Shown piece by piece: positions 1 through 3,630 of a stretch of DNA of 10,853 nucleotides; positions within the stretch are counted from its first letter, which is position 1; every line of letters starts with the position of its first letter. Both the position numbers and the translations under genes were made by a program. Origin of the DNA: a virus (Duplodnaviria > Heunggongvirae > Uroviricota > Caudoviricetes); IMG/VR virus record IMGVR_UViG_2695420478_000001, one strand, 5' to 3'. The notes beneath the pieces were generated by a model. That model ran no database searches, was not told where the DNA came from, and was given only the letters and a program-made list of their open reading frames with translations.

Positions 1-122
1 GTCGCTGGTCGCTGGTCGCTGGTCGCTGGTCGCTGGTCGCTGGTCGCTGGTCGCTGGTCGCTGGTCGCTGGTCGCTGGTCGCTGGTCGCTGGTCGCTGGT
101 CGCTGGTCGCTGGTCGCTGGTC
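1..122. repeat. Perfect heptanucleotide tandem repeat (GTCGCTG)n, 17 full copies plus a partial one; truncated by the window edge
   Basis: Direct reading: the unit gtcgctg repeats without a mismatch from 1 to 119, then gtc before diverging. The array may continue to the left of the window. Confidence 0.95.
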
Positions 123-131
123 TGGCAGCAT
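1..131 (-). CDS. Putative 5' end of a minus-strand gene: ATG at 131..129, then MLPD followed by (QRPATSD)n encoded by the heptamer repeat; partial, continues beyond the window
   Basis: Minus-strand sequence aaaAGGAtgattttATG places an AGGA ribosome-binding site 7 nt upstream of the ATG. The repeat has no stop codon in any frame on either strand. Orientation matches the surrounding operon. The gene body is not visible. Confidence 0.3.
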   Translation of the reverse strand, partial: MLPDQRPATSDQRPATSDQRPATSDQRPATSDQRPATSDQRPA

Positions 132-305
132 AAAATCATCCTTTTATGAAAATCAACGTTTTTTGAGCACTCGCACACAAAAAATTACCGCATTGGTTGC
201 AACGACAACCTTCATTTTGCGGAGCATATGACAAATAAAGTACGGGTGCGTTGAGGATGCCAGACACATCAGAGGTGGCGGGAGATTACTCCCCTGCCTG
301 GTCTC

Positions 306-461
306 TTACTTCTCAGATTCGTAGTCTACGAAGACAGCGACCTCCGTCTGGCCGGTTCGGATTCGTACCTCGCAGAAGTCTTTCCTCGTTACCAGTGCTA
401 TCACTACGACGGTAATACAGATGACGATCAGGGCGATTAACATCGCCTTTTGCTGCTTCAT
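306..461 (-). CDS. Hok/Gef-family type I toxin, 51 aa, HokD/RelF-like (MKQQKAMLIALIVICITVVVIALVTRKDFCEVRIRTGQTEVAVFVDYESEK)
   Basis: Manual translation of the minus strand from the ATG at 461 to the TAA at 308..306. GGAG ribosome-binding site upstream. N-terminal transmembrane helix plus the conserved RK.LCE..R....EVA motif typical of Hok/Gef toxins (recalled family features). Below the 60-aa cutoff of the ORF track. Confidence 0.85.
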   Translation of the reverse strand: MKQQKAMLIALIVICITVVVIALVTRKDFCEVRIRTGQTEVAVFVDYESEK

Positions 462-636
462 AGCCTACTTCTCCTTGCCTTTCGGCACGTAAGAGGCTAA
501 CCTAAGTTTGTAAGTCATAGATTTGGCCTCAGATTAATGTTAAGCGTCCTGCAAGACGCGTAATGTTAACTGGGGCTTTTCTCTGTCTGCCTTACGGCTG
601 CATGCCCGAGGCAGACAGCCTCAAGCACCCGCAGCT

Positions 637-664
637 ATTCTACAGTAAAAACTCGCGCTTTCAA
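637..664 (-). promoter_or_regulatory. Candidate sigma70 promoter TTGAAA-16 nt-TAGAAT reading leftward; the -35 overlaps the Q stop codon (pR'-like position, or the hok promoter)
   Basis: Minus-strand reading gggaaaTTGAAAgcgcgagtttttactgTAGAATagc. The position immediately downstream of Q is where lambdoid late promoters sit. Confidence 0.35.
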
Positions 665-1086
665 TTTCCCGCACGTCCGGCAAACTGACTGGCCTGTGAT
701 CCTGATGGTTCACGCTCAACGTACCTGTCCATTTCCAGCTTTACTCCCTGCATGATCAACATCCCCTCAATAACACCTTCTGCTTTTTGCAGTACCCGCC
801 CGGCCCAGCAATCAGAGCGCCCATGCTTACGGCCCAGTGACATAAGCGTCATCCCGAACACATAATAATCATACAGAAAATCATGCAAATCGCTGTTGTT
901 GACGTTCAGTTGCGCCATGCAATTGCTGATAATCAGCGCATCGTCATCGGTACACTGAGGCCGTGATTTAACCTTTGACGGGATCAGCCCCTTAAATCCG
1001 GCGGCAATGGGCGACCAGCTCACATCCTCATGATTATTGGCCACCCATGCGCCCCAGCGTTCAAGCACCTGCTGAATATCACGCAT
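661..1086 (-). CDS. Q: Late-gene antitermination protein Q (Q-family antiterminator, 933W/phage 21-like short form, about 141 aa)
   Basis: ORF 661..1170. Start chosen at the internal Met ([14 protein letters not shown]...) because its ATG overlaps the NinH stop (GATGCGTGA). Size and sequence resemble short Q proteins. Last gene of the early-right operon, after ninG and ninH. Confidence 0.75.
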
Positions 1087-3355: not shown

Positions 3356-3518
3356 AATGACCTCGCGTTTCGATAATTTTTACCTCGCCACCGTCAGGTG
3401 CTAATCATCGTGGTGGCGAACTGTGCGGGGTTAGCACTACCGGTCGAAACATCCGGCGAGCCTTTCGGCTCCCCCACACAGCCCGCCATAAATCGCGAAT
3501 GTGACTGTGCTTAGCGCA

Positions 3519-3541
3519 TAAAAAAACCGCCAGCGCGGTTA
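3519..3541 (-). terminator. Intrinsic terminator in the nin intergenic gap (stem aaccgc/gcggtt, loop gctg, 7-T run on the minus strand)
   Basis: Minus-strand transcript reads ...aaccgcgctggcggtttttttatgc. Lies in a 275-bp stretch with no ORF of 60 aa or more. Confidence 0.5.
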
Positions 3542-3630
3542 TGCACCGTTTCGATATCCGGGGTGCTAATCCCGACGCCAGATTTTGCTGGCGCGTGAGG
3601 AATATAGCCCCGAATAAATCATCGCGTCAA

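What the first reader, a model, noticed from the sequence alone, without database searches (positions are those of the whole stretch)
306..660. Hok/Gef-family type I toxin inserted immediately downstream of Q, with a short upstream ORF and probable antisense regulator
A 51-aa Hok-like toxin gene lies about 200 bp downstream of the Q stop, in the position where lambdoid phages carry the late promoter leader. A 17-codon upstream ORF (518..465) ends 3 nt before the hok ATG, in the same frame, with its end overlapping the hok ribosome-binding site, which suggests mok-like translational coupling. The leader (470-640) has several hairpins (for example gtctgcc...ggcagac), and a plus-strand promoter-like element TTGCCT-17 nt-TAACCT (474-502) could drive a Sok-like antisense RNA across the leader. 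If the promoter overlapping the Q stop is the late promoter, toxin expression would be tied to late transcription.
Basis: partly seen in the sequence, partly recalled or inferred. Interest (0 to 1): 0.55.

Follow-up and report, generated by a model that had tools for sequence, protein, structure and literature searches.

The report
Known hok/sok toxin-antitoxin beside phage Q
This is an ordinary, well-known hok/sok toxin-antitoxin cassette, a close relative of the tested hokW-sokW of Shiga-toxin phage Sp5, sitting just after the Q gene of an E. coli prophage and running from its own promoter rather than the phage late promoter.

Summary
Window 664..243 (minus strand) is a complete hok/sok type I toxin-antitoxin cassette.

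- **Toxin:** a 51-aa Hok (Pfam PF01848, 77 bits).
- **Leader:** matches Rfam RF01794 over its full length (118 bits).
- **mRNA closure:** a 5' tac element pairs with a 3' fbi element.
- **Antitoxin:** a Sok gene whose -35/-10 are identical to those of sokW. Mutating that -10 in Sp5 abolished antitoxin activity.

The cassette is 91% identical in DNA to hokW-sokW. The 17-codon upstream ORF is the in-frame mok of the hokC/hokW type, cut short by a rare CAG→TAG change. The exact 57-mer occurs in 18 of 5,426 E. coli genomes.

The conditional late-promoter idea fails. The promoter over the Q stop carries the conserved hok -10. In four relatives a 933W-type pR'/qut/tR' lies about 4.4 kb further on. 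It follows a block holding hok/sok, a hypervariable 7-nt repeat and a methyltransferase/specificity gene pair.

That block was found in 29 of 5,426 genomes. In 7 of 25 such loci hok is broken; here it is intact.

Verdict: already known, low interest. The repeat-controlled methyltransferase next door deserves its own look.

The parts
661..1086 (-). Antiterminator Q gene (context). Its last ~16 codons (709-661) differ from 933W Q and occur only together with this hok module.
   Evidence: Pfam PF06530, 161 bits. Annotated 426-nt CDS in L001/L002. Homology to 933W stops at window ~709. The tail was found only in genomes that also carry the hok junction.
637..664 (-). hok promoter: -35 TTGAAA (664-659, overlapping the Q stop TGA 663-661), 16-nt spacer, -10 TAGAAT (642-637).
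   Evidence: (10 of 12 matches). The -10 and discriminator align with hokW, Rac-SA53 hok and K-12 hokC (TATAAT agcggc GGGTGC). Cassette homology in 740+ genomes starts at window 643.
243..630 (-). Full-length hok mRNA (inferred). The +1 G at 630 is placed by homology to the R1-type +1 and by the Rfam model start. The 3' end lies at or just past the fbi element and is not mapped.
   Evidence: No intrinsic terminator was predicted on this strand downstream.
619..630 (-). tac element, GGGUGCUUGAGG, at the 5' end of the hok mRNA.
   Evidence: Pairs with 257-243 in both the MFE and the centroid fold. Duplex dG -21.5 kcal/mol, the same in Sp5 hokW and Rac-SA53.
243..257 (-). fbi element, UCCUCAACGCACCCG, in the 3' UTR. 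It closes the mRNA by pairing with tac.
   Evidence: Homology to hokW ends just after it.
456..630 (-). hok leader matching Rfam RF01794 over its full length. The model lies on the hok-sense strand and ends in the hok AUG.
   Evidence: 118.4 bits against a gathering score of 59, E=4e-27. There is a 16-nt insertion in the second hairpin relative to the model consensus.
465..518 (-). mok: 17 codons plus TAG, in frame with hok. SD GAGG lies upstream. The stop is 3 nt before the hok AUG and after the hok SD.
   Evidence: mokW and mokC are in-frame 70-codon ORFs with CAG or AGA at this codon.
306..461 (-). hok toxin gene, 51 aa, intact.
   Evidence: Identity 47/51 to HokW, 43/51 to K-12 HokD, 41/51 to HokC, 22/51 to R1-type Hok.
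475..503 (+). sok promoter: TTGCCT, 17 nt, TAACCT.
   Evidence: Identical to Sp5 sokW. The -10 was mutated in the pro-less construct of PMC8621323. Conserved in all 23 Q-linked loci read by the script.
510..586 (+). Sok antisense RNA (ends inferred, ~71-77 nt). It has a single-stranded 5' tail, a long hairpin and a U-rich tail. It is complementary to the mok SD and start.
   Evidence: Fold dG -30.8, z=-5.2. The 5' end is placed by analogy with annotated K-12 sokC, which covers the first 9 nt of mokC. sokW is reported as 71 nt complementary.
1..122 (.). Right end of a perfect heptanucleotide repeat (GTCGCTG; CAGCGAC on the minus strand). It belongs to the neighbouring methyltransferase gene and is context only, not part of hok/sok.

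Best explanation
Window 664..243 (minus strand) is a self-contained hok/sok type I toxin-antitoxin cassette of the hokW/hokD subgroup.

**How it most likely works** (mechanism inferred from R1 hok/sok and Sp5 hokW-sokW, not shown here):
1. Its own sigma-70 promoter makes a ~390-nt hok mRNA.
2. That mRNA is held closed by pairing of its 5' tac element with its 3' fbi element.
3. Slow 3' trimming opens it.
4. Ribosomes starting at mok read through the hok Shine-Dalgarno and allow hok to be translated.
5. The short-lived antisense Sok RNA, made from TTGCCT-17-TAACCT on the plus strand, covers the mok SD and start. This blocks translation and marks the duplex for RNase III.
6. When Sok synthesis falls (loss of the element, transcription shut-off, prophage induction), Hok is made and depolarises the inner membrane.

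**Local peculiarities** (shown by sequence):
- mok is cut to 17 codons by an amber codon 3 nt before the hok AUG. Whether this preserves or weakens coupling is unresolved (see evidence against and rival 1).
- The hok -35 is supplied by the Q stop-codon region.
- In all four relatives examined, the cassette is the first element of a ~4.4-kb block (hok/sok, 7-nt repeat, methyltransferase, specificity subunit) inserted into the 3' end of Q, upstream of pR'.

So it is not driven by the late promoter. It lies co-directional with pR-to-Q read-through, which could interfere with sok on induction (inferred).
For: - **Toxin and leader:** Pfam HOK_GEF 77 bits. Rfam RF01794 118 bits, full length.
- **Similarity to a tested system:** the cassette (236-640) is 91.1% identical over 100% of its length to hokW/mokW of VT2-Sakai (Sp5) and related Stx phages. 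Hok is 47/51 identical to HokW.
- **Experiments on hokW-sokW** (PMC8621323): HokW is toxic; sokW counteracts it from its own promoter; RNase III and Hfq contribute; sokW disappears and HokW appears on mitomycin C induction.
- **sok promoter:** identical to that of sokW.
- **RNA structure:** tac/fbi pairing appears in the MFE and centroid folds (z=-5.97), with duplex dG -21.5. The Sok fold gives z=-5.2.
- **Promoter ownership:** homology among hok cassettes begins at the -10 TAGAAT.
- **Late promoter elsewhere:** 933W positions 2372-2471, which carry pR', qut, tR' and the Q 3' end, map to L001 ~2080-2179 and L002 2122-2221. That is beyond the restriction-modification genes.
- **Coupling rule in R1:** mok must be translated at least up to the hok SD, and not beyond the hok start (PMC9841398). 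The amber codon here lies after the SD.
- **Allele persistence:** the amber mok allele with intact hok recurs in 13 loci, plus one where hok runs off the contig, out of 25 Q-linked loci. It also occurs in an unrelated prophage position in strain C311.
Against: - Nothing here shows expression, toxicity or antisense control for this allele.
- In R1, all five recovered premature mok stops upstream of the hok start suppressed toxicity, and even synonymous changes next to the hok SD did so. I could not see their positions because the supplement is not held. The amber codon could therefore weaken or abolish Hok synthesis.
- In 7 of 25 Q-linked loci hok itself is broken: a +T frameshift in 5 and a Q4 ochre in 2. 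So the module does decay.
- No terminator for the hok mRNA was predicted, and the 3' end is unmapped.
- The pR' position is inferred from four relatives, because the window ends inside the repeat.
Confidence: 0.9

Rival explanations
1. The cassette is an attenuated or dead hok locus. The amber codon in mok uncouples or lowers hok translation, so the locus is a silenced remnant like most chromosomal hok copies and has no present function.
For: - The exact 57-mer carrying TAG occurs in only 18 of 5,426 genomes, against ~3,900 with one mismatch (CAG in the loci I read).
- Premature mok stops upstream of the hok start are toxicity suppressors in R1.
- Sister loci in the same position carry outright hok frameshifts or nonsense codons.
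- The better -35 here (TTGAAA, 5 of 6) compared with Sp5 could have selected for attenuation (inference).
Against: - hok, the sok promoter, tac, fbi and the leader structure are all intact.
- The stop lies after the hok SD and 3 nt from the AUG, a geometry that fits termination-reinitiation and the R1 rule.
- The allele persists with an intact hok in 13-14 Q-linked loci and in another prophage context.
- Two loci of the TAG lineage still acquired a hok nonsense codon. This is easier to explain if hok remained harmful there.
Confidence: 0.3
2. One reading: the promoter overlapping the Q stop is the phage late promoter pR'. The hok mRNA would then be the late leader, and toxin expression would be Q-dependent.
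For: In 933W the annotated pR' also overlaps the Q stop. Here a strong promoter-like site sits in the same relative place.
Against: - The -10 TAGAAT, the discriminator and the transcript start are part of the conserved hok cassette, found in other genomic positions without Q.
- Sequence from 709 to 643 has no similarity to the 933W pR' region.
- A 933W-type pR'/qut/tR' (88-92% identical) lies about 4.4 kb downstream in L001 and L002.
- In Sp5, hokW mRNA is present before induction and does not rise after mitomycin C.
Confidence: 0.03
3. The cassette acts mainly as part of a composite island with the adjacent methyltransferase/specificity genes. It might stabilise that block or drive its transcription by read-through, rather than act as an independent phage lysis or maintenance aid.
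For: - The Q tail, hok/sok and the 118-nt methyltransferase leader were each found together in 29 of 5,426 genomes. The leader was never found apart from this block.
- No terminator or promoter was predicted between fbi and the methyltransferase ATG at 131-129.
Against: - The 400-nt cassette occurs on its own in thousands of genomes and in other phage positions.
- hok alleles within the block are mosaic, with four Hok variants. This suggests exchange with other copies rather than co-adaptation.
- There is no expression evidence.
Confidence: 0.1

Closest known systems
hokW-sokW (with mokW) of Sakai prophage 5 / VT2-Sakai, Takada et al. 2021 (PMC8621323)
   Same: 91.1% DNA identity over the whole cassette from the -10 to fbi. 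Hok is 47/51 identical. The sok -35/-10, tac and fbi are identical. Both have the long 16-nt-extended Sok hairpin. Both lie in a lambdoid, Stx-type prophage.
   Different: - **Position:** hokW lies near the right end of Sp5 on the strand opposite to the record's Q. This one lies directly after Q on the Q strand.
- **mok:** mokW is a 70-codon in-frame ORF, whereas here codon 18 is TAG.
- **Sequence:** there are four amino-acid changes in the transmembrane part of Hok, the first mok codons differ, and the upstream -35 differs.
hokD (relF) of the Qin prophage and hokC (gef)/mokC/sokC of E. coli K-12
   Same: Same subgroup: 43/51 identical to HokD and 41/51 to HokC. mokC is likewise in frame with hokC. 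sokC starts 9 nt inside mokC, which places the Sok start here at about 510. The promoter -10 and discriminator are alike.
   Different: - In K-12, an IS186 copy is annotated ending about 20 nt downstream of hokC.
- K-12 hokD sits directly after relBE, and no mok or sok is annotated for it.
- That the K-12 copies are inactive is from my knowledge of Pedersen and Gerdes 1999 and was not re-read here.
- The K-12 SokC hairpin lacks the 16-nt extension.
hok/sok (parB) of plasmid R1
   Same: Same architecture: promoter, tac...fbi closure, a mok start covered by Sok, a Sok promoter at the same place and spacing (TTGCGC-17-TATCCT against TTGCCT-17-TAACCT), and an mRNA of ~390-400 nt.
   Different: - Only 22/51 identical in Hok.
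- By the coordinates given in PMC9841398, R1 mok is out of frame with hok and overlaps it. Here mok is in frame and stops before hok.
- R1 is plasmid-borne with a proven post-segregational killing role.
- An R1-style terminator hairpin after fbi is not seen here.

Membership tests
Hok/Sok type I toxin-antitoxin | Small (~50 aa) Hok/Gef toxin with an N-terminal transmembrane segment | tested here: met
   PF01848, 77.2 bits, E=7e-22, profile positions 1-42 of 42. 92% identical to the tested HokW.
Hok/Sok type I toxin-antitoxin | Structured hok mRNA leader | tested here: met
   Rfam RF01794, 118.4 bits against a gathering score of 59, model positions 1-157 of 157, on the hok-sense strand.
Hok/Sok type I toxin-antitoxin | Long-range 5' tac / 3' fbi pairing that closes the full-length mRNA | tested here: met
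   Present in the MFE and centroid folds (z=-5.97). The 12-bp duplex has dG -21.5 and sits at the same positions in hokW and Rac-SA53. The R1-type locus pairs with a different sequence (GGCGCUU/AAGCGCC).
Hok/Sok type I toxin-antitoxin | mok reading frame whose SD and start are covered by Sok and which is translated at least through the hok SD | tested here: met
   mok 518-465 starts where mokW and mokC start, reads through AAGGAG and stops 3 nt before the hok AUG. It does not overlap hok because of a CAG-to-TAG change. The functional consequence is untested.
Hok/Sok type I toxin-antitoxin | Antisense Sok gene in the leader: promoter, single-stranded 5' tail, terminator-like hairpin | tested here: met
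   TTGCCT-17-TAACCT at 475-503 is identical to sokW. The 510-586 fold gives z=-5.2. The generic promoter scan does not list it because TAACCT matches only 3 of 6.
Hok/Sok type I toxin-antitoxin | ucb/dcb boxes, metastable 5' hairpins and the U-turn target loop | not tested
   I did not map these elements individually. Agreement with the Rfam consensus structure is indirect support only.
Hok/Sok type I toxin-antitoxin | Toxicity of Hok, repression by Sok, RNase III cleavage, 3' processing | not testable with these tools
   Shown for the 91%-identical hokW-sokW (PMC8621323), not for this allele.
Lambdoid late promoter leader (pR'-qut-tR') | Promoter directly after Q that is homologous to a known pR' with its qut site and tR' terminator | tested here: not met
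   There is no similarity between window 620-709 and the 933W pR' region. The 933W-type pR'/qut/tR' lies at L001 ~2080-2179 and L002 2122-2221, about 4.4 kb beyond Q.

The most novel reading that the evidence does not exclude
The Q-linked hok/sok is not a passive copy. In this reading it is wired to delayed-early transcription. It sits sense-oriented directly after Q with no predicted terminator in between, so N-antiterminated pR transcription on induction would run head-on into the sok promoter. That would deliver hok sequence while silencing Sok and time membrane damage before Q-dependent lysis. The amber-truncated mok and the Q-derived -35 would be adaptations to this position. The cassette would also anchor a composite island with a repeat-switched methyltransferase inserted between Q and pR'.
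Probability: 0.12. Interest if true: 0.5.

Novelty: already known. Interest (0 to 1): 0.15.

Why it matters
For the finding itself there is little new. It adds one more insertion site and one rare mok allele to a toxin-antitoxin family studied since the 1980s, whose closest relative has already been tested in a Shiga-toxin phage.

It is useful for annotation in three ways.
- RefSeq lists only the Hok protein here, not sok or mok.
- The Rfam 'sok' model in fact marks the hok-sense leader.
- The late promoter of this phage group should be sought about 4.4 kb downstream of Q, not next to it.

The naturally occurring amber codon 3 nt before the hok start is a ready-made test of how far mok must be translated for hok to be expressed.

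Tried and rejected
- **R1-style out-of-frame mok:** I looked for one overlapping hok. That frame is open but has no ATG, GTG or TTG after its TAG, so I rejected it.
- **Terminator for hok mRNA:** I looked on the minus strand between 305 and 123 and none was predicted. A hairpin at 195-210 is followed by a T-run on the plus strand only.
- **Source of the window:** no complete E. coli genome covers 80% or more of it, so the prophage is a mosaic. The window probably ends where an assembly broke in the repeat. Many IMG/VR contigs end in the same place.
- **Other species:** the Q/hok junction was not found in one-genome-per-species GTDB contigs.
- **StxS-like leader:** I ran Rfam on the downstream block of L001. 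It returned only sok, STnc100 and three tRNAs.
- **Positions of the R1 mok stop suppressors:** the supplement is not held.
- **Literature:** I found no paper linking hok, Stx phages and the late promoter. I found none describing a heptanucleotide-repeat methyltransferase in E. coli prophages.
- I did not run the large protein-homology or structure tools. A 51-aa Hok that is 92% identical to HokW did not need them.

Full report
**1. What is there**

On the minus strand the window reads NinG (1881-1276), NinH (1279-1079), antiterminator Q (1086-661), then a 51-aa ORF at 461-306. Pfam assigns these proteins to NinG, NinH, Phage_antitermQ and HOK_GEF. HOK_GEF scores 77 bits, E=7e-22.

Rfam family RF01794 ('sok') matches 630..456 on the minus strand over the full model, at 118 bits against a gathering score of 59. 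The match lies on the hok-sense strand and ends in the hok AUG. As built, the model therefore describes the hok leader and not the antisense RNA itself.

**2. Anatomy**

- **hok promoter.** TTGAAA (664-659), 16 nt, TAGAAT (642-637), 10 of 12 matches. The -35 overlaps the Q stop TGA at 663-661.
- **Transcript start.** Seven bases after the -10 lies G630. This is where the Rfam model starts. The R1-type and K-12 hokC sequences have the same GG(G/C)(U)GCUUGAGG motif there.
- **tac/fbi closure.** The first 12 nt (tac) pair with UCCUCAACGCACCCG at 257-243 (fbi) at dG -21.5 kcal/mol. The partner sits at the same mRNA position in Sp5 hokW and Rac-SA53. This pairing appears in both the MFE and centroid folds of the 391-nt RNA (z=-5.97, none of 100 shuffles as good).
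- **mok.** 518-465 is ATG plus 16 codons plus TAG, preceded by GAGG. It reads through the hok SD AAGGAG and stops 3 nt before the hok AUG.
- **sok.** On the plus strand, TTGCCT (475-480), 17 nt, TAACCT (498-503) would start an RNA near 510. The 510-586 stretch folds into a free 5' tail, a long hairpin and a U-rich tail (dG -30.8, z=-5.2). It is complementary to the mok SD and start codon.

**3. Relation to known loci**

The 405 nt from 640 to 236 are 91.1% identical, over their whole length, to the hokW/mokW/sokW locus of VT2-Sakai (Sp5) and many Stx2 phages. Identity is 82-90% to copies in Rac-SA53, mEp460, P1-like and PPompW phages.

Hok identity:

| Compared with | Identical residues |
|---|---|
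| HokW (Sp5) | 47/51 |
| HokD (K-12) | 43/51 |
| HokC (K-12) | 41/51 |
| R1-type Hok | 22/51 |

Takada et al. (PMC8621323) showed the following for hokW-sokW:
- HokW is toxic and locates to the inner membrane.
- sokW counteracts it from its own promoter, and RNase III and Hfq contribute.
- On mitomycin C induction sokW disappears and HokW appears in a RecA-dependent way.
- Deleting the locus halves phage release.

Their promoter-less mutant changes TAGGTTA on the hok strand. Their sokW probe YO-597 is identical to window 473-502. The antisense promoter is thus supported by experiment on an identical sequence.

**4. The upstream ORF**

K-12 mokC and Sp5 mokW share their stop codon with hokC and hokW, so they are in-frame 70-codon extensions. 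The window's uORF starts at the same ATG but has TAG where mokW has CAG and mokC has AGA.

A 57-mer spanning this site occurs exactly in 18 of 5,426 complete E. coli genomes, and with one mismatch in about 3,900. Three of the 18 are in other contexts. In strain C311 the same short mok precedes an intact hokD in the nin region of another prophage.

In R1, mok must be translated at least to the hok SD, but not beyond the hok start (PMC9841398). By that rule the amber here should preserve coupling. However, all five recovered mok stops upstream of the hok start were toxicity suppressors. I could not see their positions. Attenuation therefore remains a live rival.

**5. Context and the late promoter**

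Similarity to 933W Q ends at window ~709. The next 66 nt, which encode a different Q C-terminal tail, occur only in genomes that also have the hok junction. Of 764 genomes with any match to 800-600, 21 cover 80% or more of that stretch. The sampled others match only 643-600. The cassette's left edge is therefore at the -10, and the -35 is local.

933W's annotated pR', qut and first terminator, which overlap its own Q stop, reappear at L001 ~2080-2179 (92%) and L002 2122-2221 (88%). That is about 4.4 kb beyond Q. Between them lie hok/sok, a perfect heptanucleotide repeat, a 653-aa N6-methyltransferase and a specificity subunit.

Relative to 933W, about 4.4 kb has replaced 29 nt inside the 3' end of Q, upstream of pR'.

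Two things can still be said:
- No terminator is predicted between Q and hok.
- hok is co-directional with pR-to-Q transcription.

Read-through on induction could collide with sok transcription. This is inference only.

**6. Distribution and decay**

The Q-hok-methyltransferase-leader arrangement is present in 29 of 5,426 complete genomes. It is also in one deposited phage (PhiR12_3 of ECOR13) and 20 IMG/VR contigs. It is absent from GTDB species representatives.

State of the 25 Q-linked loci read:

| mok codon 18 | hok state | Loci |
|---|---|---|
| TAG | intact | 13 |
| TAG | runs off the contig | 1 |
| TAG | CAA-to-TAA at codon 4 | 2 |
| CAG | intact | 4 |
| CAG | +T frameshift | 5 |

The window belongs to the majority class with an intact toxin.

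**7. Verdict**

This is a correct identification of a known system, close to an experimentally characterised member and already annotated as 'Hok/Gef family protein' in RefSeq. What is specific to this locus:
- the insertion site between Q and a displaced pR';
- the Q-derived -35;
- the rare amber mok allele.

None of these changes the kind of system. Interest is low. The neighbouring repeat-controlled methyltransferase is the more unusual object and is recorded separately.

Noticed in passing
window 1-122 (continues beyond the window start); SD+ATG at window 131-129 (-); relatives L001 5378-6000, L002, L010, L011, L015-L033: A perfect heptanucleotide repeat (CAGCGAC on the minus strand) lies in the 5' coding region of a 653-aa N6-methyltransferase with an adjacent S subunit. 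Copy number ranges from 3 to 89 among relatives. The upstream ATG is in frame with the full methyltransferase in some loci (L011, L030, L015; probably L020 and L032) and out of frame in others (L001, L002, L010, L019, L031, L033). This is the signature of slipped-strand phase variation. PGAP annotates the opposite strand as a 'YXWGXW repeat-containing protein', probably spuriously. Many contigs, apparently including this window, end inside the tract. I found no description in the searched literature.
   Followed up: partly
L001 2180-6586 versus 933W (L004 2472-2500); window 1-709 is its Q-proximal end: In the relatives examined, about 4.4 kb replaces 29 nt inside the 3' end of Q. The block holds a new Q tail, hok/sok, the repeat, the methyltransferase and the S subunit(s). 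It moves the 933W-type pR'/qut/tR' about 4.4 kb away from Q. In strain 04-00955 the same arrangement precedes stx2b.
   Followed up: partly
window 3409-3607 (-): Rfam matches above the gathering score to C4 antisense RNA (3409-3493), its a1/b1 target (3555-3607) and isrK (3520-3594). They lie upstream of ORF 3355-2678 and the KilAC antirepressor gene 2609-1881. This looks like a P1-type C4/ant immunity module in the nin region.
   Followed up: no
window 456-630 (-): The Rfam family named 'sok antitoxin' (RF01794) matches the hok-sense strand and ends in the hok start codon. Hits to it mark the hok leader and not the strand of the Sok RNA.
   Followed up: yes
L010 and L011 6184-6340; L016, L019: Independent inactivations of hok occur in the same Q-linked position. 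One is a +T frameshift at codon ~9, seen in 5 loci including an Stx2b prophage. The other is CAA-to-TAA at codon 4, seen in 2 loci.
   Followed up: partly
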